From positions 13,631-77,630 of the forward strand of contig CAZTCT010000002.1 in assembly GCA_964612415.1 (NCBI GenBank): a stretch of DNA of 64,000 nucleotides, given 5' to 3'. Below, in pieces: positions 27,668 to 46,614 of the stretch. The notes under the pieces were generated by a model, which saw nothing but the letters and a program-made list of their open reading frames with translations, was not told where the DNA came from and did not search any database. Positions within the stretch are counted from its first letter, which is position 1; each line of letters begins with the position of its first letter. The DNA comes from an uncultured Candidatus Saccharibacteria bacterium. Its GTDB lineage: Bacteria; Patescibacteriota; Minisyncoccia; Phycocordibacterales; CAYRGE01. The translations under genes were made by a program, and so were the position numbers.

Positions 27668-27712
27668 AAGCTAACGCCCCCTCGCTCGTGTGTAGAGGGG
27701 GTATATAGGCAG

Positions 27713-27740
27713 ATTATACTCCGAGTAGGGGCGAAAACAA
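27713..27740 (-). promoter_or_regulatory. Putative internal promoter (TTGTTT-16-TATAAT) for uvrA, followed by a CCCCCTC...GAGGGGG hairpin in the leader
   Basis: Read on the minus strand in the 74-nt uvrB-uvrA spacer. Confidence 0.4.
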
Positions 27741-27741
27741 G

Positions 27742-29805
27742 TTATTTTCCTTTTGCTTTTTTGGTCTTTTTGTCAGGTTGTCCTACTCCTTTAGCCAAGC
27801 TCTCTTGAAGAAGCCGAATCTCATCGCGTAAGATAGCTGCAGTTTCAAAGTCCAAGATTTTTGCAGCAGCATTCATCTGCTTCTCCTTCTGTCTCAAAAG
27901 TCGGTCAGGATTTTTCTTGAATATTGGTAGATCAGTCTCAATGTTCGCACGCACAGCTTTATCATGAGCTTTTTCAAATTGCTCCGTAATGTCGTGTATC
28001 TTCTTCTCAATAGTCTTCGGGGTGATACCATGCTCTTTATTGTACGCAAGCTGCAACGCTCTGCGGCGGTTGGTTTCCCCTATTGCCCGCTCCATTGAGC
28101 CTGTCATTTGATCAGCGTAGAGAATGACGCGTCCGGTCGCATTACGCGCGGCGCGCCCAATGGTCTGGATAAGCGATGTCTCCGAACGCAAGAAGCCTTC
28201 TTTGTCTGCGTCCAAAATACCAATGAGCGCTACTTCTGGAAGATCAAGACCTTCACGAAGGAGGTTGACCCCGACAAGACAATCAAAAGCGCCTTTGCGA
28301 AATTCCGTGAGGATACGGATGCGATCTATCGTCTTTATCTCGCTATGCAAATATTCCGAGCGAAGCTTCTGCTCTTTGAGATACGCACTTAGGTCTTCCG
28401 CCATCTTTTTCGTCAGCGTGGTAGCAAGTACGCGATAGCCCTTCTTTACTACTGCCTTAGCTTCTTCAATGAAATCAGGCACCTGCCCCTTGAACTTACC
28501 CTTACTCACAATCGGTCGTACTTCAAGTTCGGGATCAACAAGCCCTGTCGGACGAATGATCTGCTCGGCGACATGGCCTTTACTCTTCTCCATCTCGTAT
28601 TCTCCCGGAGTAGCAGATGTATATATGACTTGCCCAACGCGCTCTTCAAATTCTTTGAACTGGAGCGGTCTGTTGTCCAGTGCACTTGGCAGGCGAAAGC
28701 CGAATTCAATAAGAGACTTCTTGCGTGAGGCATCTCCGGCGTGCATGCCACCAACCTGTGGGATGGTCACATGCGACTCATCTATCACGGTAAGGAAGTC
28801 GGGCTTCCCATCTTTTGTATGTGGGAAATATGCGAGAAGTGTATCTGGCGGATCGCCCTCTTCGCGCCCAGCAAGATGGCGTGAATAATTCTCAATACCG
28901 TTGCAATATCCCACTTCCTTGATCATCGCCAAGTCATAATTCGTACGCCTGCGTAGACGCTCAGCCTCTAGAAGCTTCCCTTCCTTTTTAAGCACCTTCA
29001 GACGGTCGGCAAGCTCATTTTTGATCGCGGTTATCGCGCGCTTGCGTTCATCCTCGGGAGTGAGGAAGTGCTTCGCAGGAAAAAGGAAAAGTGTATTGGG
29101 AGTATCAATGATCGCACGCGTGATAGCGTCTATTTTCTCAATTGATTTTATTTTGCCCACACCAAGGTCAACCCGATAAATCACTCTCTCTGATACAGGC
29201 ATGATCTCTACCCTATTGCCAATAGCACGAAATGTCCCAGGGGTGAGGTCGGATGGGGTGCGCTCAAAAAATACTTGTACAAGTTTTGCTATCAAGCTCC
29301 TGCGCTCAAGCTTGTCCCCCACATTGAGCTCCAAATGCTGTTTGCGATATTCCTCGGGGCTTCCAATACCATAGATACAAGATACTGATGCGACAATGAT
29401 GACATCGCGCCGCGTAAGGAGTGCTTGTGTTGATGCATGACGAAGACGGTCAATCTCTTCATTGATTTGTGCATCCTTCTCTATATATGTATCCGATGCA
29501 GCCAAATACGCTTCTGGTTGGTAGTAGTCATAGTATGAAACGAAATAATGTACTTCATTCTCTGGGAAAAATTCCTTGTACTCTTGCGCAAGCTGCGCAG
29601 CAAGCGTTTTGTTGTGCGCAATCACAAGCGTAGGCTTGTTCACATTGGCGATGACATTGGCAATCGTGAAGGTCTTGCCCGACCCCGTCACACCGAGCAG
29701 TGTCTGGTGCTCGATATCAGAATTAAGCCCTTTGGTGAGGGCTTCTATGGCCTTGGGCTGATCGCCCGCCGGCTCCCATTCGCTTTTGAGATTAAAACTT
29801 GCCAT
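27742..29805 (-). CDS. uvrB: Excinuclease ABC subunit B
   Basis: Helicase motifs, beta-hairpin, C-terminal UVR domain. Confidence 0.93.
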   Translation of the reverse strand: MASFNLKSEWEPAGDQPKAIEALTKGLNSDIEHQTLLGVTGSGKTFTIANVIANVNKPTLVIAHNKTLAAQLAQEYKEFFPENEVHYFVSYYDYYQPEAYLAASDTYIEKDAQINEEIDRLRHASTQALLTRRDVIIVASVSCIYGIGSPEEYRKQHLELNVGDKLERRSLIAKLVQVFFERTPSDLTPGTFRAIGNRVEIMPVSERVIYRVDLGVGKIKSIEKIDAITRAIIDTPNTLFLFPAKHFLTPEDERKRAITAIKNELADRLKVLKKEGKLLEAERLRRRTNYDLAMIKEVGYCNGIENYSRHLAGREEGDPPDTLLAYFPHTKDGKPDFLTVIDESHVTIPQVGGMHAGDASRKKSLIEFGFRLPSALDNRPLQFKEFEERVGQVIYTSATPGEYEMEKSKGHVAEQIIRPTGLVDPELEVRPIVSKGKFKGQVPDFIEEAKAVVKKGYRVLATTLTKKMAEDLSAYLKEQKLRSEYLHSEIKTIDRIRILTEFRKGAFDCLVGVNLLREGLDLPEVALIGILDADKEGFLRSETSLIQTIGRAARNATGRVILYADQMTGSMERAIGETNRRRALQLAYNKEHGITPKTIEKKIHDITEQFEKAHDKAVRANIETDLPIFKKNPDRLLRQKEKQMNAAAKILDFETAAILRDEIRLLQESLAKGVGQPDKKTKKAKGK

Positions 29806-35581: not shown

Positions 35582-36994
35582 TTATTCTACCTCAAGTTGT
35601 TCGCCTTTCTTATATTTTACCAAAGGTAACGTCCCCCACGAATTGATAATGGGCGTAATGAAGGCCCACGCCCTCTCAACTTCATTTGTACTTGCAAAGA
35701 GAGTTTGGTCTCCAATGATACTATCGTAGAGAACCTTTTCATACGCATCCGGTATGGGTAATGTGTCCGCATCGCCATTGTAGGCAAACGAGAGAAGGCG
35801 GGCGGCAAGGTCATGGTCAAACCCAGCTTTTCTTGCCCAAAACCGAACAGATATACCTTCGTCAGGTTGTATGCGAAATACTAAAACATTTTCATGCTCA
35901 ATCTCGTCATCATGTGAACAGAGACATGTGTCGCTATGTTTAAATGTAACGCGAATCTCAGTCTTCCGCTCCGCAAGCGCTTTCCCGCTTTCAAGATAAA
36001 ATGGCACCCCTTCCCAACGGGGCATGTTTAAAAATGCACGCAGCTTAAAGTATGTCTCCGTCTGCGAGTGAGGGCTAACACCTTTCCCTAATGCATATTC
36101 ATTATACTGAGCGCGAAACGCATCAAGAGTAACATCAAGTGGCGCTAGGGCGTCAAAAACTTCCGCCCTTTTCGCGCGTATAGAGTCAGCAGACATGCCA
36201 TCAGGTCTGTTCATCGCAACAAGCGCAAGCATCTGCAAGATATGGTTCTGCCCCACATCCCGCAGCTCTCCAACTCCATCGTAAAAGTCACCCCGAAATG
36301 ATAAATCAGAGGTGTCGCTCATCATTATCTCCACTTTTCGGATGTGCTCTTTATTCCACAATGGCTCAAAAAGGCGGTTTGCAAATCTAAACATCAAAAT
36401 ATCCTGTACAGCGTTCTTCCCAAGATAATGATCGATTCGGAAAATTTGCTCCTCTTTGAACAGCAGCCCTAGTGTTCGGTCGAGCTCTTTTGCTGTCTTG
36501 ATATCTTTCCCAAATGGTTTTTCAATGAGAATACGGGTCCACCCAGTTTTATCACTACAAGAAAGTGAGAGTCCTGAATTAGCAATTTGCCCAATAATAT
36601 CTTCGTAGTGCCCAGGAGAAGCTGCGAGATAAAGTAACTTATTCGTACACATCTTGATTTGCTTCTCAAACGCAATGACCGCAAGCGCAAGCGCCCCATA
36701 TGCATCTGCAGAATTAAAGTCCCCGGACAAATAGTGGATACGTTCAACAAAGGCACGCACCTTGTCTTTGTCTGCAACGCGCCCAAGAATGCTCTCCCTC
36801 TCCACGAACTCGCGATACTCTGCATCGCTAAACTCCCTTCGCGAGAAACCAATGAGCCGCCATTGATCAGGCAAAAGACCCCTGCTGTAGAGATCAAAAA
36901 GTGCGGGAAGGAGTTTTTTGCGTGCTAAATCTCCAGTGCCGCCAAATATTACAAAAATAGTAGGGACATTCCCTACTTTTATCTTCTCGGGCAT
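35582..36994 (-). CDS. zwf: Glucose-6-phosphate 1-dehydrogenase
   Basis: RIDHYLGK and EKPFGKD signature motifs. Confidence 0.92.
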   Translation of the reverse strand: MPEKIKVGNVPTIFVIFGGTGDLARKKLLPALFDLYSRGLLPDQWRLIGFSRREFSDAEYREFVERESILGRVADKDKVRAFVERIHYLSGDFNSADAYGALALAVIAFEKQIKMCTNKLLYLAASPGHYEDIIGQIANSGLSLSCSDKTGWTRILIEKPFGKDIKTAKELDRTLGLLFKEEQIFRIDHYLGKNAVQDILMFRFANRLFEPLWNKEHIRKVEIMMSDTSDLSFRGDFYDGVGELRDVGQNHILQMLALVAMNRPDGMSADSIRAKRAEVFDALAPLDVTLDAFRAQYNEYALGKGVSPHSQTETYFKLRAFLNMPRWEGVPFYLESGKALAERKTEIRVTFKHSDTCLCSHDDEIEHENVLVFRIQPDEGISVRFWARKAGFDHDLAARLLSFAYNGDADTLPIPDAYEKVLYDSIIGDQTLFASTNEVERAWAFITPIINSWGTLPLVKYKKGEQLEVE

Positions 36995-37009
36995 ATGTTC
37001 TCGTGTAAT

Positions 37010-39013
37010 CTAATTTTTGTCCGCCTCGTGCTGGTAGAGCGGATCACATTCAAGGCACAAACCGAGCTCTTCAAGCCGGTCGAGATATTTTATCACAGTG
37101 ATGACATACTCTGAATGGCTCCATGCCAGGGGAGCTGCCGAAATCTGAGCTCCTGTCTCTGGGTCAAGTTGCTCGGAGAGCACCCCGCTTTTGCGGGCAT
37201 GATCGACTGTCCAGCGCAACCAGCCCTTGGCAACTGCGAAATCATTAGAATTTTTTGCCTTTGCGATGTAGTATTGCGCAAGCCATAGTGTGGTAATAAA
37301 CCACGGATTGCCCGTCACCTCCTTTCGGGTCTTGTAGAACTTGTCCCCTGTATATCGGGCGATGCCTCCAATGAGGGTTGGAGCTGCGAGCTTTTTTTCT
37401 ACAAGCATGATCATCTCATATAAGCGCGGATCATCCGGAGGAAGTACTCCAAACGCGAAAAGTCCGTACACACTGCTCATATCAAGAGTATCGTCAACAG
37501 TCTTTTTGCCTTGTTCAAAGTTTACAAGTTTGTAAAACATTTTTTGCTGCGGATCATAGAGGTGTGTCAAAATAGCTTCCTTCACCTCCTCTGCGGCACT
37601 TTTGTAATACTCCTGGCTTCGCTTTTTCCCAAGTAATGCTGCAAATTGCGACGCGGCATTCAGAGCGCCGTAGACCGTACAGGCAGTAAATGTGGAAATG
37701 CCGTACTTCTCTTCCCAGAGATCATAACTTGGATGTGGAAGTCGAGAAGTTTCATCTCTGAAAAGTACCATAAAGTCTGCTGCCTTTTTGATAAGCGAGT
37801 TGTAAATAGTTTCAATGAACTCCACATCGTGAGAAAGTGTGTAGTGCTTCCAGAGACTCAAGAGAACAAGGGCTGTTTCATCTTCTTGTATTGGGAGCTG
37901 AAATTCCCCTCCACGTATCCAGGGCTGCCATGAGCTTCCAAGCGATCCATCTGGACGATATTTGTGCATAAAATATCCGCCGTCAGAGATAATTTCATCA
38001 CACATACGGAAGAATCGCTGGGCGGAATTAAAGTCACCTGCCATATCGAGCGCCATAGAGGCATACGCTGCATCTCTCGGCCACATGTAGCTATATGTGT
38101 CTTTTCCGCCCTGGAGCATGTCTGAGTCGCCAGATGCGATGATAGAGCCGCGCATGTCCGTATGCGCTCGAATAACAAAAAGTGATTTCTTAAAAAGCTT
38201 GGTCACCGACTCATCTAGGTCGTGGAAATTAAACTTCTCCTTTTTTATCCATGCATTCCAAAAATCATGCGTTGTTCTGATCATATGCTCTGGAGTCTTA
38301 CTCATTGTGTAGTCAGAAATTTGTCGGGCTTCAGAGACAGATTCCGCTGAGACAAGCCAGTAATAAAGCACTTTCTCCTCCCGAGGATCATACACACGAT
38401 AAAATCCGACCACCGAGTCAGTGGGCCCATGCTCTATCGCATTGCGGGACAAAACCCCATCCTCAGCGTCTTTGTACGATCCTTCTTTGCCTTCAATATT
38501 GAAAACCCCAGTGGTGTAGTCATCAAAAGGCCTGTCATTACACCTGCCTCCGATAGCAAAAACTCGTTTACCGCTATAGTGAACGATTACATGATTGCGC
38601 GGGTCAAAATATGCCGTGTCACCACTGTGTGCACCTGAAATCTCAAACTCATGTGCAAAAAAAACTTTTATTGTTCGTTTTTGATCGGAAAGGTTGCGGG
38701 TAATACACCTGCGCAAAAAAACATTTTTTTCATTATAAATTGTGTCCGATATCTCAAGCTCTACTTGCAGTTGCTCATTACGGGCAATGGTCTTGCCAGC
38801 AAGCGCGTCATCGGCACTCTCCACACTCACCTTCCAAGATGGGTCGGAAAGCCATTTGAGTGTGCCGTCTACCCACACACCGATCCTATGTCGAGAGTGC
38901 CCACTGATATGATTTTCTAACCCAATGTACGGGAAATACAAATCCCGAACGAACGCGTGTTCGTCAAGGCAGACCATCATATTGCCGTTCCCTAGGGCAA
39001 GATGACGCGGCAT
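37010..39013 (-). CDS. GH15 family glucoamylase/glucodextranase-like glycoside hydrolase
   Basis: Archaeal-type GH15 N-domain plus (alpha/alpha)6 catalytic domain (recalled COG3387-like pattern). Confidence 0.75.
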   Translation of the reverse strand: MPRHLALGNGNMMVCLDEHAFVRDLYFPYIGLENHISGHSRHRIGVWVDGTLKWLSDPSWKVSVESADDALAGKTIARNEQLQVELEISDTIYNEKNVFLRRCITRNLSDQKRTIKVFFAHEFEISGAHSGDTAYFDPRNHVIVHYSGKRVFAIGGRCNDRPFDDYTTGVFNIEGKEGSYKDAEDGVLSRNAIEHGPTDSVVGFYRVYDPREEKVLYYWLVSAESVSEARQISDYTMSKTPEHMIRTTHDFWNAWIKKEKFNFHDLDESVTKLFKKSLFVIRAHTDMRGSIIASGDSDMLQGGKDTYSYMWPRDAAYASMALDMAGDFNSAQRFFRMCDEIISDGGYFMHKYRPDGSLGSSWQPWIRGGEFQLPIQEDETALVLLSLWKHYTLSHDVEFIETIYNSLIKKAADFMVLFRDETSRLPHPSYDLWEEKYGISTFTACTVYGALNAASQFAALLGKKRSQEYYKSAAEEVKEAILTHLYDPQQKMFYKLVNFEQGKKTVDDTLDMSSVYGLFAFGVLPPDDPRLYEMIMLVEKKLAAPTLIGGIARYTGDKFYKTRKEVTGNPWFITTLWLAQYYIAKAKNSNDFAVAKGWLRWTVDHARKSGVLSEQLDPETGAQISAAPLAWSHSEYVITVIKYLDRLEELGLCLECDPLYQHEADKN

Positions 39014-39019
39014 GAGATT

Positions 39020-39358
39020 TTATCGATATGAAGCAAGCCGTTTAGCAACCGCTTTTTGAGCAGCATTTTGACTTTTTGCTGCACGAAGCGATTTGGCACA
39101 TGCTGCATCTTGGAGTATGTCATTCACCCACGAGGCAAAGTCGTTGCGCCCCTTTTCAACATGATACCCGTACTGCTCCGCCGATATCTCCTTGAGCGCA
39201 GTTGAAAGTTCTTTGAGATCTTTGAGTACTGGGCCATTATTCACCCAAAAACACACTTCTGCAGAAGCAACGACTAGCTCCTTGCCTCTTTTCTTTGCAG
39301 GAGTTTTAGCTTTTGTTTTCGTTGTCTTCTTTGTTGTTTTTATAGTTTTCTTTTTCAT
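39020..39358 (-). CDS. Small protein with Lys-rich histone-like N-tail plus a conserved-looking C-domain (CFWVNNGPVLKDL...), hypothetical
   Basis: MKKKTIKTTKKTTKTKAKTPAKKRGK tail; embedded between GH15 and GH57 with 6-14 nt spacers. Confidence 0.5.
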   Translation of the reverse strand: MKKKTIKTTKKTTKTKAKTPAKKRGKELVVASAEVCFWVNNGPVLKDLKELSTALKEISAEQYGYHVEKGRNDFASWVNDILQDAACAKSLRAAKSQNAAQKAVAKRLASYR

Positions 39359-39371
39359 AATATTTTTTTAA

Positions 39372-40607
39372 TTATACCAAAAGTTTCTCTCTTTCTCCTC
39401 TCGCACCTTTACTTTCTCGCTCCACGCGTATCTTAAGATCGTTAATCGCGTTCATAAAAGCGATATACGCCTCGTATGGAGACTCATACGGATTGAAGTA
39501 TTTATGTACGTCTCCATCTGCAAACCACTTAGTGCACATGTAGTAGAAGTGGTCTGATGTTTGAAGTCTCCTCCAATCACGAATGATATCGAGATTCTTG
39601 GTTGCAAGTACCGCGTCTTCTAGCGCATAGATGCTTTCGAGTGCATTGTGCTGTAGTGGGTTAGACCTCCACGCAGAGAGATCTCGCTCAACATCAGCCC
39701 AAGACACATAGTGCGGAACGTCTAGCTCACCTACAGATGGATAGCGCAACGCCGCTTCAGTTGGCGTCACAAAGTCATTGTCGGGGTGTTTGAGTACTTC
39801 CCCAGGCAAAGCGCGCAAGAAATCAAAGATGCCTGTATCTGCCCATTGGTGCTCGCCAAACGTTTCGTAATCCATGAAGAGATTCACTACATTGCCATTT
39901 CCATTCACCGCAGATACCCATTGTGCAAACTGTGGTGCGGTAAGTGGGTACCCTGCCCAATCTCGAGAGGAAAAGCGGAAGGCAATGTCGTCTGAAAGGC
40001 GATAGTGTTTGAGTAAGAGCTTAATGTTTTTTGCACCCGGCGCGCTATAGAGGAAAGAAGGGCTTTTCCACCCAAGAATATGATCTGCTCCTTCCGCAAT
40101 GATGCCAAGATATCCCATCTCAGCGGCTGTTTTTGCAACTTCATTGCTGAAAATAAGCTCAGTATTTCTAAAGACACGTGGAGTGTAGCCAAAAAGTTTT
40201 TTGACTTTCTGCTTATGAAAAAGTACTTGCTTCTTGAATTCCTCTTTGGAGTAAAGGAAAGCGAGTGAATGAAAATATGTCTCACTCAGAATTTCAACTC
40301 TTCCTGTGTCCACAAGCCGCTTAAATGAGTCAAGTGTCTCTGGAGAAAATTCTTCAAGTTGATCCAAAAAGACCCCTGACAGGGAGAAGCTTACTCGAAA
40401 GTCTGGATATTGATTGAGCAAATCAAGAAGAACTGCGTTTGCTGGCAGGTAGCACTTCCCCGCTACCTTATTCAAAACTTTTCTATTGTTTGTGTCACGT
40501 TCCGCCTCATCATTGAAATATTGATGATCCTTCCCAATATCAAAAATTCGATATCGCTTAATGCGATATGGTTGGTGTACCTGAAAATAAAAGCAGACTG
40601 ACGCCAT
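39372..40607 (-). CDS. GH57 family alpha-glucan-active enzyme (amylase/branching-enzyme type)
   Basis: N-terminal CFYFQVHQPYR matches the GH57 (HQP) signature. Confidence 0.78.
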   Translation of the reverse strand: MASVCFYFQVHQPYRIKRYRIFDIGKDHQYFNDEAERDTNNRKVLNKVAGKCYLPANAVLLDLLNQYPDFRVSFSLSGVFLDQLEEFSPETLDSFKRLVDTGRVEILSETYFHSLAFLYSKEEFKKQVLFHKQKVKKLFGYTPRVFRNTELIFSNEVAKTAAEMGYLGIIAEGADHILGWKSPSFLYSAPGAKNIKLLLKHYRLSDDIAFRFSSRDWAGYPLTAPQFAQWVSAVNGNGNVVNLFMDYETFGEHQWADTGIFDFLRALPGEVLKHPDNDFVTPTEAALRYPSVGELDVPHYVSWADVERDLSAWRSNPLQHNALESIYALEDAVLATKNLDIIRDWRRLQTSDHFYYMCTKWFADGDVHKYFNPYESPYEAYIAFMNAINDLKIRVERESKGARGEREKLLV

Positions 40608-40609
40608 AA

Positions 40610-41824
40610 TTATTTTTTAAATAACGAATGATAAATATCAATGCACCTCTGTGCCGCACGCCTCCAATTGAGCCCTTGCACCTCTCCTCTACTGTAGTCT
40701 CTTAGAGTTGAGTGGAGTGTTGGGTGTTTCAACACACTCAAAATTTTATTTGCAGTCTCATCAATATCCCAGAAATCAACCTTGAGCGCATGAGTGAGTA
40801 CTTCCGATACGCCTGACTGCTTAGAGATAATGACAGGAACCCCGCTTGCGACCGCTTCAAGCGGAGTAATGCCAAAAGGCTCCGAAATAGAAGGCATTAC
40901 AAATACATCCGCGACTCGATAAAGCGATTTGAGATCATCTCCTCGCAAAAACCCGACAAAGAGGAGTTTCTCTCCTATCCCAAGATACGCCGCCTCATTC
41001 ATGATCTTGTGCTGCATATCTCCTGACCCAGAAACGACGAACAATACGTTTGGATCATGCTCCAGCACCTTCTTGGCTGCACGTACAAAATATTCAGGAC
41101 CCTTTTGTATTGTGATACGCCCCACGAAAAGAACGATTTTGCGCCCGCCAGCCTTGAGGGCAGCAAGACTATCGGCGTAAGATGACGGCGCCCACTCGTC
41201 GCCATCAACGCCATTATACACGACCTGAACCTTCTCTCTTGGCACTCCGTAGTGCACAACGAGTTTCTCCTTCGTTTGTTCACTTACTGCGATGATGAGA
41301 TCTGCCTCTTCCATTGATGAGCGCTCAATGTTGTACACATCCTGATTGACTCCATGCCCGCCAGTGCGATCAAACTCGGTGGCATGCACATGCAACACAA
41401 GCGGTTTACCACTTACACGCTTGGCTTGAACTCCTGCGAGAAATGAAAGCCAGTCATGTGCGTGGATTACATCAAAATCTTCCTCTTCTGCAATTTCACG
41501 GGCCAGCACACCATACCTTCTCACCTCATCTATCAGCGAAAGCGCGAACATGCCTTTCCCTTTGCGCAACATCTCGGCGTATTTCTCAGAGGTAAGGTAG
41601 GGGTACAGATACGCGGGCACATTTCTAAATTTCAAACTCACGCCTTTATCAGCAAAGCGCAGTTTTGCATATGGTGAATCTACGGGAACTGTTTTGGGGA
41701 GTACGAAAGTGACTGAAACGTCCTCCTCGCACAATGCCTTTGTGAGGCCAAAACATGCAGTCCCCAGCCCTCCACTATTGTGGGGTGGGAATTCCCATCC
41801 AAACATAAGAACTCGTAAAGGCAT
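40610..41824 (-). CDS. glgA: Glycogen synthase-like retaining glycosyltransferase (GT4/GT5)
   Basis: MPLRVLMFGWEFPPHNSGGLGTA N-terminus, GT-B C-terminal E-x7-E region; ORF-track start at 41869 adds 15 unconserved aa. Confidence 0.75.
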   Translation of the reverse strand: MPLRVLMFGWEFPPHNSGGLGTACFGLTKALCEEDVSVTFVLPKTVPVDSPYAKLRFADKGVSLKFRNVPAYLYPYLTSEKYAEMLRKGKGMFALSLIDEVRRYGVLAREIAEEEDFDVIHAHDWLSFLAGVQAKRVSGKPLVLHVHATEFDRTGGHGVNQDVYNIERSSMEEADLIIAVSEQTKEKLVVHYGVPREKVQVVYNGVDGDEWAPSSYADSLAALKAGGRKIVLFVGRITIQKGPEYFVRAAKKVLEHDPNVLFVVSGSGDMQHKIMNEAAYLGIGEKLLFVGFLRGDDLKSLYRVADVFVMPSISEPFGITPLEAVASGVPVIISKQSGVSEVLTHALKVDFWDIDETANKILSVLKHPTLHSTLRDYSRGEVQGLNWRRAAQRCIDIYHSLFKK

Positions 41825-42163
41825 TGGCGTTATATGAACTTCTGTGCGGGATAAAACAACGGGCAACAACTCTATGCGGCGCTAAGACTGAAAAAGAAAG
41901 TGGCGGGTACACATTGCCCCATCACATATAGCGCGTGTGGGAATGAGCCCGCCTTGCATAAAGTCATTACTTTTTATTTTCATGGTTGTACAGTGACGCT
42001 CGTTTGCTCGTGAGCGGTGCTATACGCAAATGACGGCAACCCGACTTTTGCCGAACTTTGCGCGCACACTTCATTTTAGCACGCAACTTCTCTCTTCTGC
42101 CATAAAAAATCTGTTAATAATGCGCTCCTGGCGCGAAATTGGGTATGGTATAGTTGTTCCTGT

Positions 42164-42883
42164 ATGAAAAAACAAAAACCGTCTAGCCGAAAAAAGCGAG
42201 TCAATCTACGTGAGTCAAAAATCCCGCGCAAACCTTACACACGAAAGGAAATTGAACACACCGCAAAGGAACGTATTGCACTTGTGGGACGTGAACTTTC
42301 AGACGGAATCTCATTTTCGCAGCGACATACCCGCTCAGTAACCGTCTTTGGATCAACACGATTGCGCCCAGGAAACCCTTTGTATAAAAAAGCGTACAGT
42401 CTTGCGAAGCGCATATCAAAAGAAGGATTCGCCATCACCACAGGGGGTGGCCCAGGAGCCATGGAGGCTGCGAATAAAGGCGCGCATGATGCAGGCGGGC
42501 ACTCACTTGGCTTTACCATTCGCCTCCCACAAGAAGAAGTGGCAAACCCATACGTAAATGAGTCGGTGAATTTCTATTACTTCTTTACGCGCAAAGTAGC
42601 TCTTTCATTTGCCGCAGAGGCTTATGTGTATTTCCCTGGTGGTTTTGGTACCTTAGACGAACTTTTTGAAATTCTTACCCTTGTACAGACTCACAAGATA
42701 CCGCCTGTGCCAATTATCCTTTTTGGCAAAGAATACTGGACACCCCTTGATACGTTCTTCAAAAAACACCTTGCACAAAAATATAAGACGATAGATAAAA
42801 AGGACACGGGGCTCTACATCATTACCGATAGTGAAGACAAGGCAATGGAGGCAATCAGGCGTGCCCCCATTAGAAGGAAGTAG
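42164..42883 (+). CDS. LOG-family (TIGR00730) nucleotide 5'-monophosphate phosphoribohydrolase
   Basis: GGGPGAMEA and PGGFGTLDELFE motifs. Confidence 0.82.
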   Translation: MKKQKPSSRKKRVNLRESKIPRKPYTRKEIEHTAKERIALVGRELSDGISFSQRHTRSVTVFGSTRLRPGNPLYKKAYSLAKRISKEGFAITTGGGPGAMEAANKGAHDAGGHSLGFTIRLPQEEVANPYVNESVNFYYFFTRKVALSFAAEAYVYFPGGFGTLDELFEILTLVQTHKIPPVPIILFGKEYWTPLDTFFKKHLAQKYKTIDKKDTGLYIITDSEDKAMEAIRRAPIRRK

Positions 42884-43133
42884 TCTTGTACCCTTCTGCT
42901 TTAAGTTTTTTGACCTTTTGGCTCGCTCCTTTATTGTACCCTCCAGCTTTGCCATCTGAGCGAATGACGCGATGGCAGGGAATGTTGGGGTTGTAATTGG
43001 TCTTCATGATCGCCCCTACAGCTCGCGCAGCATGTGGGTTACCCGCCCGCACCGCAACCTGCTTGTATGTAAGGACACTCCCCTTTGGAATCTTGCTCAC
43101 AATTGTGAGCACTTTGTCACGAAAGCTTTGCAT
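42870..43133 (-). CDS. ogt: Stand-alone MGMT C-terminal domain (methylated-DNA-protein-cysteine methyltransferase, 87 aa)
   Basis: PCHRV active-site motif with Cys retained; start 1 nt after the helicase stop. Confidence 0.8.
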   Translation of the reverse strand: MQSFRDKVLTIVSKIPKGSVLTYKQVAVRAGNPHAARAVGAIMKTNYNPNIPCHRVIRSDGKAGGYNKGASQKVKKLKAEGYKTTSF

Positions 43134-43134
43134 A

Positions 43135-46100
43135 TTATTGTGGCTTCATTGTCGCACGAAGCGCGCAATAATCGCAATCCTTCTTTCCGCATGTTTTGTC
43201 CCAGAACGCAAGACTGTAAATCTCGCTTCCAATCCGCTTCATTTCCCGCACAAGCTCGTCAACCTCGTCTTGAGATATCACAAAGCGTTCTTTTTTGAAC
43301 CGCCCCTTATCATCAGGCTCAACGAAGTCAATTTCACCAGTCTCCATCTTATATTTCCCTTCGTCATATCTGTCTAGCAGATATTTATAAAAAACAAGCT
43401 GCCGCTTATATTCCCCGTCGCTTGATTTAGTTTTACCTTCAATCGCATTACGTGAGCGTGGTTTTGATGTCTTGTAGTCAACCACATTTATTCCGCCATC
43501 TCCCTCCTCAATCTTATCGATTACCCCGCGCAATGTAATAATCAAAGGCTCGCCACTATTCTCAATGGTTAGATAAGGGCCAGCAATAGAAAATTCAGTT
43601 GCAATAGGCACCACCACTGAATGCTTGTACGCTTTGTAGTACCCCAAGAGCGCGCGCTTCCCTTTCGCGAGTAAATCAGTAAAGTCCGTCGCCGAAAGGG
43701 GCTCTCGCCCAAGAAGCCCAGCTAGGCGTTCTTCAAGAAAGCTCTCTGTCGGTGACTCTCCGGCTCGTAGCGCGTCATAATATTCTTTCAAGATACGGTG
43801 TATCACTGTTCCATACATTTGGAATTTAGAATATGGCCGCGGAATACGTACCAGGCTTACAAAAAAGTACTCCCATGGACAGCGCAGGTAATTATTAACC
43901 GCGGTGATGGAGAGGCCTTGTTCTAAAAAAAGCTCCTGCAAATATTTTTTGTCCGCAATTTCTGGGCCTTGATTTATACGAGGCGCAAAAATTCGCTCCT
44001 TTTCTTTTTGATATTTTGCTTCAAATTCGCCGACATCCTGCGACCTGATCAGCTTTACGTCAATTTCTCCGACAAACTGCGATGGAAGCTGATGCCGCCC
44101 ATCTATACTGGTTGAAGAATAGCTCAATGAAACTCCCTTGCGTGCTCGTGTGAGGAGCACATAGAAGAGCCTTCTTTCGTCCTCAACTTCACCTTCAAAC
44201 GACAGGGCAATGTCACCGCGCGCAACCCGGAAGGATGTTCGTGACCTTCTTCCTCCCCAGTGCTTGTCGTAAACACCGATTGCATATACATAATCAAACT
44301 CAAGTCCTTTTGCCTTGTGAGCCGTCATAAGACGCACGCCCCCGCCCCCTGCGCGATGCGGCATTTTTACAAGAACACCATGCCTCTCTAGAATCGCAAT
44401 GTACTCAAGAAAATCGCGCAACAAATATTCACGGTGGCCTAATACCGCTCTCTCTGCTTCAGTGAAAAACCCCTCGAGTGTTTCCATGCGCCTTGTGCCG
44501 CCTACTTCTGCAAGAATTGAGTGCAGGAAGCCTGACTCACGGACCACCACCTCAAGCGTTTCAAGGAGCCCGCGATTTCGGGCAAGCTTCCCCCACCCAG
44601 CCATGTTCTTCGCAAGCCTCAATATTGTCTCTTGCGCTTCTACGCCTGCTTTCTCTAATACTTTTTTTGACTTCATAGTCCCGTATAATGGGATTCGCTC
44701 CTTTCGCGCATGTGATATGACGCGATGCACATCAATATTGGGGATACCAAGAAAATCAATGTAGAGCGCCGCGGCAAGTACTGTGTCATCTCCCAGGTCC
44801 TCAACGGCGCGCAATAGTGCAATAAGCTTGCGAAGATCTTGGTCGCTTAAAAGGTCTCTGTCGGAGAGAACTATAAATGGTATGTCACTCTTTTCTAGAT
44901 ATCTGAGCACTGTATGCGCATCATTATTATCCCTGTAAAAAATGGCAATCTCTTCGGGTGGGACTCCATCAGAGATTTTCTTTCTTATGTCATCAACGAG
45001 GAAAAAATACTCATATTCAGGGGAAGAAAATTCGGAGAGGAGTATGGGAGCAGGGCCTGCTTCCTTTTTTGCCACCAGAGGGGCATGGAGCGTTTTGTCG
45101 TCAACCCTGTTGTGCAATATAACGCTATGCGCTGCATCAAGAATATCTTGTCGGGAGCGATAGTTCTCCGTCAGTGTAATAATGAGTGCGCTCGGGAATT
45201 TGTCTTTGAAGTATAGGAAGTTCGCCAGAGAGGCGCCTTGGAATCTGAAGATTGCTTGCTTCTCATCTCCCACAATAAAAAGATTGGGGTCCTCGTGGAA
45301 ACTTGCGAGAAGCTCAAGGATACGATTTTGCGCATTGTTCGTATCCTGGTGTTCGTCCGCGAGAATATACTGGTAGTTTTCCTGCAGACCAAGGAGAAAA
45401 TCTGAATTGCGCTCCATAGCACGCACTGCCTCAATGATCATGTCCTCATAGTCATACTTCTTATCTGCTTCAATTTCTTCCTGATACATTTGATACGCTC
45501 GCGCAAGCTCTTTTGTCTTCTCAATATCCTTTAATTCCTGTAAATACGCTCCCTTCATTTTGCCTTTGTGCGCGCCCTTTTCATGATAAAGATCCGGCAA
45601 CTGATTGAACGCATCTTCGGACTGCTCAACGATGCGCGTAAACACATCGGGAGCAATCCCCTCGCGCTTGAGATGTTGTATCGCCCCTAAAATAGAACGG
45701 ACGTAGAAAAACACATCTCCGTAAGGACGAAGAAGGTTGAATCCTCCTTTTTCGAGTACGCGCTCAACAATAGCGATCCTATCTACATCCGTTGCGCTTG
45801 TTCCGCCGATAATTCTAGGGAACTCATCGGGGTACGTAATAATGAGGTCTTGGCAAAATGAATGGAAAGTCATGATATTGACCCGGTAGGCCGGACTTCC
45901 AATAATCTCCACTAGACGTTTGCGCATTGAATGCGCACCCGACTCTGTAAATGTAAGCGCAAGAATATTTTCGGGCATCGTGTCGGTCTTGAGAAGAATG
46001 TTCGCGATACGCAGCGTAAGTGTTTGTGTCTTGCCTGTCCCAGGGCCGGCAATAACCATGACAGGCCCCTCTATCGCATCCACGGCTTGTTGCTGTGCCT

Positions 46101-46161
46101 TGTTAAGCCTCTTATATTCACGCTGAAATGTAGCCGCATCCATTGGCTCATTATAGCCCAT
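43135..46161 (-). CDS. UvrD/PcrA-type SF1 helicase fused to a C-terminal PD-(D/E)xK nuclease with Cys cluster (AddA/AdnA-like)
   Basis: Walker A GPGTGKTQ, UvrD motifs, C-terminal VVDYKTSK plus CGKKDCDYC. Start taken at MGYNEPMD (46161), because the ORF-track Met at 46182 lies inside the upstream terminator hairpin. Confidence 0.8.
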   Translation of the reverse strand: MGYNEPMDAATFQREYKRLNKAQQQAVDAIEGPVMVIAGPGTGKTQTLTLRIANILLKTDTMPENILALTFTESGAHSMRKRLVEIIGSPAYRVNIMTFHSFCQDLIITYPDEFPRIIGGTSATDVDRIAIVERVLEKGGFNLLRPYGDVFFYVRSILGAIQHLKREGIAPDVFTRIVEQSEDAFNQLPDLYHEKGAHKGKMKGAYLQELKDIEKTKELARAYQMYQEEIEADKKYDYEDMIIEAVRAMERNSDFLLGLQENYQYILADEHQDTNNAQNRILELLASFHEDPNLFIVGDEKQAIFRFQGASLANFLYFKDKFPSALIITLTENYRSRQDILDAAHSVILHNRVDDKTLHAPLVAKKEAGPAPILLSEFSSPEYEYFFLVDDIRKKISDGVPPEEIAIFYRDNNDAHTVLRYLEKSDIPFIVLSDRDLLSDQDLRKLIALLRAVEDLGDDTVLAAALYIDFLGIPNIDVHRVISHARKERIPLYGTMKSKKVLEKAGVEAQETILRLAKNMAGWGKLARNRGLLETLEVVVRESGFLHSILAEVGGTRRMETLEGFFTEAERAVLGHREYLLRDFLEYIAILERHGVLVKMPHRAGGGGVRLMTAHKAKGLEFDYVYAIGVYDKHWGGRRSRTSFRVARGDIALSFEGEVEDERRLFYVLLTRARKGVSLSYSSTSIDGRHQLPSQFVGEIDVKLIRSQDVGEFEAKYQKEKERIFAPRINQGPEIADKKYLQELFLEQGLSITAVNNYLRCPWEYFFVSLVRIPRPYSKFQMYGTVIHRILKEYYDALRAGESPTESFLEERLAGLLGREPLSATDFTDLLAKGKRALLGYYKAYKHSVVVPIATEFSIAGPYLTIENSGEPLIITLRGVIDKIEEGDGGINVVDYKTSKPRSRNAIEGKTKSSDGEYKRQLVFYKYLLDRYDEGKYKMETGEIDFVEPDDKGRFKKERFVISQDEVDELVREMKRIGSEIYSLAFWDKTCGKKDCDYCALRATMKPQ

Positions 46162-46195
46162 AAGAAAAAGCCCCCACACCATCTGTTTGGTGTGG
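46162..46195 (-). terminator. Intrinsic terminator downstream of the cytochrome c gene (CCACACC-loop-GGTGTGG + CTTTTTCTT)
   Basis: Read on the minus strand; a second GCCCG...CGGGC hairpin at 46209..46228. Confidence 0.7.
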
Positions 46196-46242
46196 AGGCT
46201 TGGGGTAAGCCCGACTTGTAAGGCGGGCGTTTGTTGTAAGGC

Positions 46243-46614
46243 TTACTGGGAGCCGGCCAGGCTCAAGACGAAGTCCACGAGCGTCGCGATATCACCGTCG
46301 GAGACACGCGGGCTGTAGGGCGGCATGGGCACACCACCAGTGACTTCGGTCCAGTTGCCCTTGCCGCCGGCCTTGACCTTGGCGACGAGTGCGTCCTTGG
46401 CGCCGGCATCACCCTGATACTTCTTGGATACGTCCATCCATGCCGGACCGACGACCTTCTTGTCGATGGCGTGGCAGGCGATACAGCCGCTTGATTTGGC
46501 CAGGTCGGGCATTTCGGCGGCGTTGGCGGGGACATTGGGCAGCAGAATGATACAGGAAACGATGATTGCCAGCGCGATCGGCATCAGTATGCGGTTAAGG
46601 GTTCCCTGAAACAT
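46243..46614 (-). CDS. Class I c-type cytochrome (cytochrome c551/c552-like) with signal peptide; compositionally foreign (GC-rich) gene
   Basis: CIACH haem-binding motif; GCIACHAIDKKVVGPAWMDV...GVPMPP closely resembles Pseudomonas cytochrome c-551 (recalled); GGAGGG Shine-Dalgarno at -8; GC3 strongly elevated. Confidence 0.85.
   Translation of the reverse strand: MFQGTLNRILMPIALAIIVSCIILLPNVPANAAEMPDLAKSSGCIACHAIDKKVVGPAWMDVSKKYQGDAGAKDALVAKVKAGGKGNWTEVTGGVPMPPYSPRVSDGDIATLVDFVLSLAGSQ

What the first reader, a model, noticed from the sequence alone, without database searches (positions are those of the whole stretch)
42870..46161. UvrD-type helicase/PD-(D/E)xK-nuclease fusion translationally coupled to an 87-aa stand-alone MGMT domain
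The roughly 1000-aa protein combines an SF1 UvrD-like motor with a C-terminal RecB/Cas4-like nuclease that carries a Cys cluster (CGKKDCDYC). Its stop codon is 1 nt from the start of a mini alkyltransferase that retains PCHRV.

Coupling an end-resecting helicase-nuclease with a suicide alkyl-repair protein suggests a dedicated alkylation/break repair module.

The ORF-track start of the helicase lies inside the cytochrome c terminator hairpin, so the true start is probably MGYNEPMD.
Basis: partly seen in the sequence, partly recalled or inferred. Interest (0 to 1): 0.5.

Follow-up and report, generated by a model that had tools for sequence, protein, structure and literature searches.

The report
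Two ordinary repair genes, packed together
A helicase-nuclease and a miniature alkyl-repair protein, both common in Patescibacteria, sit 1 nt apart here, but only in this one genus-level lineage, so this looks like genome compaction and not a dedicated repair module.

Summary
A UvrD/PcrA-type helicase with a C-terminal RecB/Cas4-type PD-(D/E)xK nuclease and four conserved Cys (43135..46143/46161, minus strand) ends 1 nt before an 87-aa MGMT C-domain protein (42870..43133). That protein keeps PCHRV and every other catalytic residue.

Both proteins belong to large Patescibacteria (CPR) families: over 7,800 helicase-nuclease hits and 3,601 MGMT-family hits, the best 120 almost all 82-107 aa.

The pairing is not conserved.
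- None of 77 species-level helicase loci has MGMT directly downstream.
- None of 80 mini-MGMT loci carries the helicase.
- The four closest helicase relatives (55-58% identity) lack it.
- Only contigs at 92-100% nucleotide identity share it.

A 1-nt spacer is ordinary in this genome: 16 of 46 same-strand gene pairs are 4 nt apart or less.

The likeliest start is ATG 46143 (MDAATF), not MGYNEPMD. It fits the homologues and a genome-wide leaderless pattern, with TATAAT ending 6 nt upstream.

One lead remains. About 30% of mini-MGMT loci elsewhere have a stand-alone Cas4-like Fe-S nuclease directly upstream. It is a distant relative of the helicase's nuclease domain, so a nuclease-MGMT partnership is not excluded.

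The parts
46168..46201 (-). Intrinsic terminator hairpin of the upstream cytochrome c gene. The ORF-track ATG 46182 of the helicase lies in its 3' arm.
   Evidence: 14 pairs, 8 G-C, T tract.: -29 kcal/mol, z -3.46; compensatory G-C to A-T change in strain contig L086.
46150..46155 (-). TATAAT -10-like box ending 6 nt before ATG 46143; inferred promoter of a leaderless helicase-MGMT transcript.
   Evidence: sequence; 18 of 60 genes in the window have such a hexamer ending 4-10 nt before the start, mode 6 nt. SD-like motifs at only 10 of 60 starts.
43135..46143 (-). Helicase-nuclease CDS from the best-supported start (MDAATF..., 1002 aa). Alternative starts are 46161 (MGYNEPMD) and 46182 (ORF track).
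   Evidence: homologues begin 3-5 residues before the conserved F; residues 1-14 of the ORF-track protein have pLDDT below 50; more than 7,800 homologues of about 1000 aa with the same architecture.
44113..46107 (-). SF1A UvrD/PcrA-type motor. Motif I is AGPGTGKT (46027-46050), II DEHQD (45343-45357), III VGDEKQAIF, IV ENYRS, V TAHKAKGLEF, VI VLLTRAR.
   Evidence: Pfam. PcrA 1pjr 6e-70. Foldseek PcrA/UvrD 7e-34; motifs invariant across the family.
43153..43914 (-). C-terminal RecB/Cas4-type PD-(D/E)xK nuclease domain. Key residues are H795, E863, D889 (GVIDK), D902-Y-K904 (VVDYKT, 43468-43485) and Q928..Y932.
   Evidence: PDDEXK_1 7e-26. D889, D902, K904, Q928, Y932 and H795 invariant in 31 diverse sequences; the domain profile aligns D902 with the catalytic D1014 of AdnB.
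43165..43191 (-). C998-x4-C1003-x2-C1006 (CGKKDCDYC). Together with C768 (43879-43881) this is the presumed four-Cys Fe-S ligand set of Cas4/AddB/Dna2-type nucleases.
   Evidence: all four Cys invariant in 29 sequences. L015 has replaced all four, L069 has lost all four (one replaced, three deleted), and L071 has lost C768, C1003 and C1006 and has S at the C998 column.
43133..43137 (-). Stop-start junction TAA-T-ATG; possible termination-reinitiation site.
   Evidence: sequence; no SD-like motif upstream; spacing of this kind is common in the window.
42870..43133 (-). 87-aa alkyltransferase consisting of the AGT C-terminal domain only; PCHRV at 42966-42980. Its 3' end overlaps the convergent LOG-family gene (42164..42883) by 14 nt.
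   Evidence: PF01035 7.4e-28. TIGR00589 78 bits against a cut-off of 46.4; human AGT 4e-14; model pLDDT 87, TM 0.86, rmsd 1.8 A to human AGT residues 92-175; catalytic residues invariant.

Best explanation
These are two independent, widely distributed Patescibacteria DNA-repair genes that became adjacent in one genus-level lineage and are now co-expressed. They are not a conserved dedicated module.

Gene 1 is the phylum-wide single-chain helicase-nuclease. It has a UvrD/PcrA-type SF1A motor, inferred to translocate 3'->5'. A RecB/AddB/Cas4-type PD-(D/E)xK nuclease carrying a four-Cys (Fe-S type) module is fused to its C-terminus. I infer that it unwinds DNA and cuts the displaced or tracked strand, as the AddA, RecB and AdnB subunits do, and that it serves general recombination and excision repair. 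uvrA and uvrB lie 15 kb away.

Gene 2 is the common CPR mini-MGMT, an AGT catalytic C-domain without the N-terminal domain. I infer that it flips O6-alkylguanine into its pocket and irreversibly transfers the alkyl group to Cys53.

Transcription most likely starts at a TATAAT box 6 nt upstream of ATG 46143, giving a leaderless mRNA. The MGMT ORF, which has no SD, would then be translated by ribosomes that terminate at UAA and restart 1 nt downstream.

Shown: domains, motifs, the junction, and the lack of conserved adjacency. Inferred: activities, the transcription start and the translational coupling.
For: - Domains and motifs are intact.
- Both families are large and mostly CPR. The helicase-nuclease gave 7,832 hits of about 1000 aa with the same architecture. 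The MGMT query gave 3,601 hits, the best 120 almost all 82-107 aa, which NCBI names 'MGMT family protein'.
- Adjacency is absent elsewhere. None of 77 species-level helicase loci has MGMT downstream, and 2 of 80 have it about 3.4 kb upstream. P0002, P0005, P0006 and P0007 (55-58% identity) lack it. None of 80 mini-MGMT loci carries the helicase.
- The pair is shared only by contigs at 100% and about 92% nucleotide identity.
- The recurrent helicase context points to a housekeeping role. A DsbA-like gene lies convergent downstream in 25 of 77 loci, with rpoD (about 16) and dnaG (about 10) upstream.
- Tight spacing is generic: 16 of 46 same-strand pairs are 4 nt apart or less, and 91% of the window is coding.
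- Both genes are under purifying selection between strains: pN/pS 0.04 for the helicase and 0.26 for MGMT.
- The leaderless pattern is seen at 18 of 60 genes.
Against: - Mini-MGMT genes elsewhere are directly preceded by a stand-alone Cas4-like Fe-S nuclease in 21 of 71 loci, in varied flanking contexts. The juxtaposition here with a homologous nuclease domain may therefore not be pure chance.
- AGT C-domains fused to an endonuclease are known (review PMC10779285).
- The arrangement survives about 8% nucleotide divergence.
- No biochemical activity, transcript map or whole genome was available.
Confidence: 0.7

Rival explanations
1. A functional nuclease-MGMT partnership, which is a looser version of the first reader's idea. 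Mini-MGMT lacks the N-terminal domain and works with a Cas4/RecB-type Fe-S nuclease domain. It recognises or repairs O6-alkylguanine, and the nuclease incises or processes the site or the resulting protein-DNA intermediate. In most lineages the partner is a stand-alone nuclease; here it would be the nuclease domain of the helicase.
For: - 24 of 80 mini-MGMT loci carry the solo Cas4-like nuclease. In 21 it lies directly upstream on the same strand, often overlapping.
- The flanks of the pair vary: MgtC in 8, ATP-cone/Mrr in 5, and at least 10 different downstream genes.
- MGMTs in paired loci are as divergent from each other as random pairs, 64% against 61% identity.
- The solo nuclease is a distant homologue of the helicase's nuclease domain (blastp 8e-7). 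It also sits beside the helicase in L020 and L023.
- AGT-EndoV fusions and the ATL-NER link are precedents.
Against: - Orthologous helicase-nucleases in 77 other species have no MGMT next to them.
- Many paired loci share a block (MnmA, Mrr, MgtC, nuclease, MGMT) that could simply be inherited synteny.
- No nuclease-MGMT fusion was found among the 120 closest solo-nuclease homologues or among 10 long representatives.
- From the nuclease side, 1 of 3 loci checked has RmuC instead.
Confidence: 0.17
2. The mini-MGMT acts mainly as an ATL-like damage sensor. It hands O6-alkylguanine lesions to UvrABC nucleotide excision repair, with the co-expressed helicase-nuclease playing the UvrD role, so that co-transcription serves NER.
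For: - Like ATLs, it lacks the N-terminal domain.
- uvrA and uvrB are present in the window at 25073-29805.
- The helicase's best family matches are PcrA and UvrD.
Against: - The Cys is retained, together with His, Glu, Tyr and Asn of the transfer network, all invariant in the family.
- The model is closer to true AGTs (TM 0.86, 44% identity) than to Atl1 (TM 0.76, 35%).
- The pairing is not conserved.
Confidence: 0.08
3. The helicase-nuclease is an anti-phage defence component, as proposed for other UvrD-Cas4-like fusions or for Gabija GajB, and MGMT is a passenger.
For: - PADLOC GajB models match the motor (4.9e-84).
- Hudaiberdiev et al. 2017 place many UvrD-Cas4-like fusions in defence contexts.
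Against: - The GajB matches cover only the generic UvrD motor.
- No GajA, restriction-modification or Dcm/Vsr partners were seen among the recurrent neighbours, which are dnaG, rpoD and a DsbA-like gene.
- The family is near-universal in the group, uniform in length and under strong purifying selection.
Confidence: 0.03

Closest known systems
AdnB / AddA / RecB subunits of the bacterial end-resection machines AdnAB, AddAB and RecBCD
   Same: An N-terminal UvrD-like SF1A motor followed by a C-terminal RecB-family PD-(D/E)xK nuclease in one chain of about 1000-1200 aa. Full-length Foldseek alignments were obtained to AddA (4ceh_A, TM 0.53), RecB and AdnB. The nuclease profile aligns D902 with AdnB D1014.
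   Different: No conserved partner subunit (AddB, AdnA, RecC/RecD) is encoded nearby in 77 loci. NCBIfam scores are far below the AddA and RecB cut-offs. From my own knowledge, not tested here, the four-Cys module sits in AddB and not AddA in AddAB; in this protein it is in the motor-bearing chain.
UvrD-Cas4-like fusion proteins of pfam12705 (Hudaiberdiev et al. 2017, PMC5704561)
   Same: The same domain architecture: a UvrD-like SF1 helicase with a Cas4-like PF12705 nuclease.
   Different: The described fusions are mostly found in Type III R-M or Dcm/Vsr defence contexts. The CPR family here sits in housekeeping contexts. Whether it belongs to the same monophyletic branch was not tested.
PcrA / UvrD / Rep helicases
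   Same: These are the best sequence and fold matches for residues 26-714. All SF1A motifs are present.
   Different: The score of 335 bits is far below the 911-bit PcrA equivalog cut-off, and there is an extra 270-aa nuclease domain.
O6-alkylguanine-DNA alkyltransferases (Ogt, Ada-C, human MGMT)
   Same: PCHRV is present, together with the equivalents of Tyr114, Arg128, Asn137, Tyr158 and Glu172. The model superposes at rmsd 1.8 A on the human AGT C-domain.
   Different: The N-terminal domain is entirely missing: 87 aa against 160-210 aa.
Alkyltransferase-like proteins (Atl1, YbaZ/eATL, vpAtl 2KIF)
   Same: Stand-alone proteins made only of the C-domain fold, about 100-130 aa.
   Different: ATLs lack the acceptor Cys and do not transfer alkyl groups. 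This protein keeps the Cys and the whole catalytic network.
AGTendoV of Ferroplasma acidarmanus and archaeal ATL-EndoV fusions
   Same: An alkyltransferase C-domain without the usual N-domain, linked to a nuclease (review PMC10779285).
   Different: Those are true fusions with an endonuclease V domain. Here the genes are separate, the nuclease is of the PD-(D/E)xK type, and the adjacency is not conserved.

Membership tests
SF1A UvrD/PcrA/Rep helicase superfamily | Helicase motifs I, II, III, IV, V and VI, and the 1A/1B/2A/2B fold | tested here: met
   AGPGTGKT, DEHQD, VGDEKQAIF, NYRS, TAHKxKGLEF and LTRAR are invariant. Pfam PF00580 and PF13361 match. Foldseek gives PcrA/UvrD at E 7e-34.
PcrA or UvrD equivalog (NCBIfam TIGR01073 / TIGR01075) | Score above the curated whole-protein cut-off | tested here: not met
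   335 bits against 911 for PcrA, and 252 against 1144 for UvrD.
RecB-family PD-(D/E)xK nuclease | Catalytic motifs GxhD, hhD-x-K and QxxxY | tested here: met
   D889, D902, K904, Q928 and Y932 are invariant in 31 sequences. PDDEXK_1 matches at 7e-26. The domain aligns to the AdnB catalytic D1014.
Cas4/AddB/Dna2-type Fe-S nuclease | One Cys N-terminal and three Cys C-terminal to the nuclease core, ligating a 4Fe-4S cluster | tested here: inconclusive
   The Cys pattern is present (C768, C998, C1003, C1006). It is invariant in 29 sequences. L015 and L069 have lost all four and L071 most of them. Metal binding cannot be tested here. Cas_Cas4 Pfam (19.1 bits against 22.7) and NCBIfam (37 against 65) are below cut-off.
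AddAB / AdnAB / RecBCD heteromeric resection complexes | A partner subunit gene (AddB, AdnA, RecC/RecD) encoded with it, and an equivalog-level score | tested here: not met
   No helicase-like or nuclease-like partner occurs among the recurrent neighbours in 77 loci. AddA scores 144 bits against 708, and RecB 167 against 696. The rest of the genome was not available.
O6-alkylguanine-DNA alkyltransferase (AGT/Ogt) | PCHRV acceptor Cys with the His-Glu network, Arg finger, Tyr114 and Asn137 | tested here: met
   alignment to human AGT. Y23, R37, N46, P52-V56, Y66 and E80 are invariant. TIGR00589 scores 78 bits against 46.4.
O6-alkylguanine-DNA alkyltransferase (AGT/Ogt) | Two-domain architecture with an N-terminal domain (Methyltransf_1N or equivalent) | tested here: not met
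   Only PF01035 is found, covering residues 4-81 of 87. The helicase ORF ends 1 nt upstream, so there is no room for another domain. The best 120 MGMT-family hits are almost all 82-107 aa.
O6-alkylguanine-DNA alkyltransferase (AGT/Ogt) | Stoichiometric alkyl transfer from DNA to the protein | not testable with these tools
   This needs biochemistry. The review PMC10779285 states that the N-domain is not strictly required.
Alkyltransferase-like (ATL) proteins | Acceptor Cys replaced (Trp or Ala) in an otherwise AGT-like C-domain | tested here: not met
   PCHRV is retained, and 77 of 81 related loci keep PCHR.
Conserved gene pair or operon (dedicated helicase-nuclease + MGMT module) | Adjacency maintained across independent lineages | tested here: not met
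   0 of 77 and 0 of 80 in the two directions. The four nearest relatives are negative. The pair occurs only in contigs of 92-100% nucleotide identity.
Translationally coupled gene pair | Stop and start overlapping or a few nt apart, and downstream translation dependent on upstream translation | tested here: inconclusive
   The geometry is met (TAA-T-ATG, no SD). Dependence cannot be tested. The same geometry is seen in 16 of 46 same-strand pairs.

The most novel reading that the evidence does not exclude
In Patescibacteria, the N-domain-less mini-MGMT works as a two-part lesion-recognition and incision system with a Cas4/RecB-type Fe-S nuclease. The partner is usually a stand-alone nuclease encoded immediately upstream. 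In this lineage the nuclease domain of the helicase-nuclease would take that role. This would be a separate-gene analogue of archaeal AGT-EndoV fusions and of ATL-to-NER hand-off.
Probability: 0.15. Interest if true: 0.6.

Novelty: new member of a known kind. Interest (0 to 1): 0.3.

Why it matters
As it stands, the finding is a caution: in compact CPR genomes a 1-nt stop-start junction between two repair genes is not evidence of a functional module.

Two by-products have some value.

First, the helicase-nuclease family is near-universal in Parcubacteria-type genomes and has no obvious partner subunit. It is a candidate for a minimal single-chain counterpart of AddAB/AdnAB/RecBCD, and possibly of UvrD as well, in organisms with pared-down repair.

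Second, Cys-containing, C-domain-only alkyltransferases are abundant and have not been characterised biochemically. They are frequently adjacent to solo Cas4-like nucleases, whose function in CPR is an acknowledged open question (PMC5704561). That gives a concrete, testable hypothesis for both proteins.

Tried and rejected
- **LOG gene as the conserved downstream neighbour.** I asked whether the convergent LOG-family gene is the usual neighbour of the helicase, which would make MGMT an insertion between them. It is not: LOG has no match in 80 helicase loci. The usual neighbour is a DsbA-like gene.
- **Single-sequence phmmer of the nuclease domain against PDB.** No hits. A profile was needed.
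- **Structure prediction of the nuclease domain alone (A5).** The full-length model was used instead.
- **First ORF-based neighbour census.** It undercounted the solo nuclease (8-11 loci). A tblastn recount gave 24.
- **Search for nuclease-MGMT fusion proteins.** None was found among the 120 closest solo-nuclease homologues or among 10 over-long representatives. Those carried NUDIX, HD_4 or DUF2779 instead, or no second Pfam domain.
- **Mosaic or recent-transfer origin of MGMT.** Sliding-window identity between strains was 94-96% in MGMT against a mean of 92% and a range of 85-99%. This is not distinctive enough to claim recombination.
- **Literature on Patescibacteria together with O6-methylguanine repair.** Nothing found.
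- **Defence reading.** PADLOC GajB hits match only the generic motor.
- **tRNA scan of the window.** No genes found.

Full report
**1. What is there**

On the minus strand there is a long ORF (43135..46182, 1015 aa on the ORF track) and an 87-aa ORF (42870..43133). The junction reads ...CAA TAA T ATG..., so one base separates the stop from the next start.

Pfam assigns the long protein as follows:
- UvrD-helicase, 2.5e-61
- UvrD_C, 1.8e-37
- PDDEXK_1, 7e-26, residues 757-1010
- sub-threshold Cas_Cas4 and Dna2

The short protein matches only PF01035, the AGT DNA-binding/catalytic domain, at 7.4e-28. CGKKDCDYC and PCHRV are at the stated places.

Upstream, the cytochrome c gene (46243..46614) ends in a strong hairpin, 46201..46168. 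It has 14 pairs and a T tract and folds at -29 kcal/mol, z = -3.5. The ORF-track ATG 46182 lies inside it. In a related strain the stem carries a compensatory G-C to A-T change, which argues that the hairpin is functional.

**2. The helicase-nuclease**

All SF1A motifs are present and invariant across 29 homologues: AGPGTGKT, DEHQD, VGDEKQAIFRFQGA, NYRS, TAHKxKGLEF and LTRAR. The best solved relatives of the motor are PcrA (6e-70), UvrD and Rep.

An AlphaFold model (pLDDT 82.9) matches PcrA/UvrD for the motor. It aligns over its full length with AddA (4ceh_A, TM 0.53), RecB and AdnB.

In the nuclease domain H795, D889, D902, K904, Q928 and Y932 are invariant in 31 sequences that include Bacteroidota relatives. 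A profile of the domain finds AdnB as its only PDB match (E 0.0068). In that alignment VVDYKT lies on VLD(1014)WKT, the residue mutated in the nuclease-dead AdnB structures.

Four Cys (C768, C998, C1003, C1006) are invariant in close relatives. L015 has replaced all four, L069 has lost all four (one replaced, three deleted), and L071 has lost C768, C1003 and C1006 and has S at the C998 column. Loss of the set together is what one expects of a metal-cluster ligand set of the Cas4/AddB/Dna2 type. Metal binding itself is untested.

NCBIfam scores are far below the equivalog cut-offs of PcrA, UvrD, AddA and RecB. This is therefore a distinct family, not one of those enzymes.

**3. How common is the family, and where does it sit?**

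The protein search returned 7,832 hits at E <= 1e-10. The best 120 are all about 990-1050 aa with the same Pfam architecture. The sources name them Parcubacteria, Paceibacterota, Campbellbacteria, Lloydbacteria and similar.

A scan of one genome per species returned 583 relatives, of which 80 were fetched. Recurrent neighbours among 77 usable loci are:
- a convergent DsbA-like gene downstream, in 25 loci
- rpoD upstream, in about 16
- dnaG upstream, in about 10

This is a housekeeping setting with no partner subunit. UvrD-Cas4-like fusions as an architecture are already described, mostly in defence contexts (PMC5704561). PADLOC GajB matches here cover only the generic motor.

**4. The mini-MGMT**

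The alignment to human AGT residues 92-175 (4e-14) retains Tyr114, Arg128, Asn137, Pro-Cys145-His-Arg-Val, Tyr158 and Glu172. The corresponding positions are invariant in 26 homologues.

The model (pLDDT 87) superposes on the human AGT C-domain at TM 0.86 and rmsd 1.8 A. This is closer than to Atl1, at TM 0.76.

The MGMT query returned 3,601 hits, and the best 120 are almost all 82-107 aa. NCBI labels those it names 'MGMT family protein', from Patescibacteria. This is an established, if uncharacterised, protein class and not a truncation artefact.

A recent review notes that the AGT N-domain is not strictly required, that C-domain-only versions occur fused to endonuclease V, and that ATLs lack the N-domain (PMC10779285).

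**5. Is the pair conserved?**

Forward test. A tblastn of the 87-aa protein against 80 helicase loci, each with 4 kb flanks, found MGMT in only two, L009 and L051. In both it lies about 3.4 kb upstream with unrelated genes between. None has it directly downstream.

Closest relatives. P0002 (58% identity), P0005 and P0006 (55%) and P0007 (55%) have other genes downstream.

Reverse test. 80 metagenomic mini-MGMT loci, 36 of them with at least 3 kb upstream, contain no helicase-nuclease at all.

The helicase-MGMT-LOG arrangement recurs only in three other assemblies of the same lineage. One is identical to the window (L081), and two are about 92% identical in nucleotides (L086, L087).

In this window 16 of 46 same-strand gene pairs are 4 nt apart or less, and 91% of the sequence is coding. 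The 1-nt spacer therefore carries little information.

**6. Start codon and expression**

Homologues begin 3-5 residues before the conserved Phe. This matches M14 (MDAATF, ATG 46143) better than MGYNEPMD (46161). Residues 1-14 of the ORF-track protein are unmodelled, with pLDDT below 50.

SD-like motifs occur at only 10 of 60 starts. By contrast, 18 of 60 genes have a TAnnnT-type -10 hexamer ending 4-10 nt before the start, with a mode of 6 nt and few elsewhere in the upstream 40 nt. The helicase has TATAAT (46155-46150) ending exactly 6 nt before ATG 46143.

I infer a leaderless transcript starting at or near 46143. That would place ATG 46161 outside the mRNA. I also infer reinitiation for the SD-less MGMT ORF. 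Both inferences need 5'-end mapping and reporter tests.

**7. An unexpected lead**

Among the 80 mini-MGMT loci, 24 carry a stand-alone nuclease of about 266 aa that matches PDDEXK_1 and Cas4 models. In 21 it is directly upstream on the same strand, out of 71 loci that have more than 300 nt upstream. It has its own Cys motifs, CxxC...C...CDYC.

Several observations bear on whether this pair is meaningful:
- The pair keeps together while its flanks change: MgtC in 8, ATP-cone/Mrr in 5, others upstream, and at least 10 different genes downstream.
- The MGMTs in paired loci are as divergent from each other as random pairs.
- Starting from the nuclease, 2 of 3 loci checked have MGMT immediately after it, one of them overlapping by 4 nt. 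The third has RmuC.
- This nuclease is a distant homologue of the helicase's nuclease domain (blastp 8e-7). It sits next to the helicase in L020 and L023.
- NUDIX is the second commonest upstream neighbour (6 of 53), and a nuclease-NUDIX fusion exists (P0365).
- No nuclease-MGMT fusion was found.
- Part of the signal may be inherited synteny: MnmA, Mrr, MgtC, nuclease and MGMT form a shared block.
- The Cas4 phylogenomics paper calls the function of CPR solo-Cas4 unknown and does not mention alkyltransferases.

**8. Verdict**

The sequence features are real and correctly identified. The claimed dedicated alkylation/break repair module is not supported.

The best explanation (confidence about 0.7) is two common CPR repair genes juxtaposed and co-expressed in one genus-level lineage of a very compact genome.

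A looser functional link between mini-MGMT and Cas4/RecB-type nuclease domains remains possible (confidence about 0.15-0.2). It is the only part that would be of wider interest.

Novelty: a new member of known kinds. Interest: 0.3.

Noticed in passing
window 46243-46614 (minus strand): The cytochrome c gene (CIACH haem motif, signal-peptide-like N-terminus) looks foreign. Its GC is 60.8% against 47% for the window. It has a strong GAAGGAGG Shine-Dalgarno sequence, unlike almost all other genes here, and its own terminator. It is also present in three other samples' contigs (L081, L086, L168), so it is not a chimera. Two assemblies break inside it at about 46375. From my own knowledge, not tested here, CPR bacteria generally lack respiratory chains, so horizontal acquisition is likely.
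   Followed up: partly
whole window (60 genes), e.g. 2768, 17082, 20620-23328, 42164, 47957, 53747: The genome shows a leaderless-type start signal. 18 of 60 genes have a TAnAAT-like hexamer ending 4-10 nt (mode 6) before the start codon, whereas SD-like motifs occur at only 10 of 60 starts.
   Followed up: partly
L093:1285-2327, L111:4192-5240, L159:4205-5249, L169:3001-4136, L173:3001-4055 and 17 further loci: A stand-alone Cas4-like PD-(D/E)xK nuclease with Cys motifs lies directly upstream of the mini-MGMT in 21 of 71 metagenomic loci, with varying flanks. I found no report of this gene pair in the papers searched.
   Followed up: partly
P0365 (392 aa); six NUDIX upstream neighbours of mini-MGMT, e.g. 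L113:4565-5020: NUDIX is the second commonest gene directly upstream of mini-MGMT (6 of 53). One representative protein fuses the solo Cas4-like nuclease to a NUDIX domain. In L113 the order is PolX, NUDIX, MGMT. Together these look like a small damage-avoidance neighbourhood.
   Followed up: no
L003:1038-7626 and about 25 other helicase loci: The recurrent context of the helicase-nuclease in other Parcubacteria is a convergent DsbA-like thioredoxin gene downstream, often with dnaG and rpoD upstream. The helicase thus sits at the end of the macromolecular-synthesis gene cluster.
   Followed up: partly
L015:6179-6991, L069:4579-5391, L071:6281-7093: A few helicase-nuclease lineages have lost all or most of the four nuclease-domain Cys while keeping D, D-x-K and Q..Y. 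This suggests the presumed Fe-S module is dispensable for catalysis in some lineages.
   Followed up: no
window 25073-27667 and 27742-29805 (minus strand): uvrA (864 aa) and uvrB (687 aa) are encoded 15 kb from the finding, so nucleotide excision repair is present in this organism.
   Followed up: no
window 42870-42883: The 3' ends of the MGMT gene and of the convergent LOG/TIGR00730-type gene (42164..42883) overlap by 14 nt, and no clear terminator separates them.
   Followed up: no
window 35582-41869 (minus strand): A carbohydrate gene run lies directly downstream of the LOG gene: G6PD, a GH15 glucoamylase-like gene, a DUF5752 gene, GH57 and a GT4/GT5 glycogen-synthase-like gene.
   Followed up: no
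window 42870-46182 compared with L086: Between the two strains, synonymous divergence is lower in MGMT (pS 0.10) than in the helicase (pS 0.35). However, local nucleotide identity varies from 85% to 99% along the region, so this is not clear evidence of recombination.
   Followed up: partly
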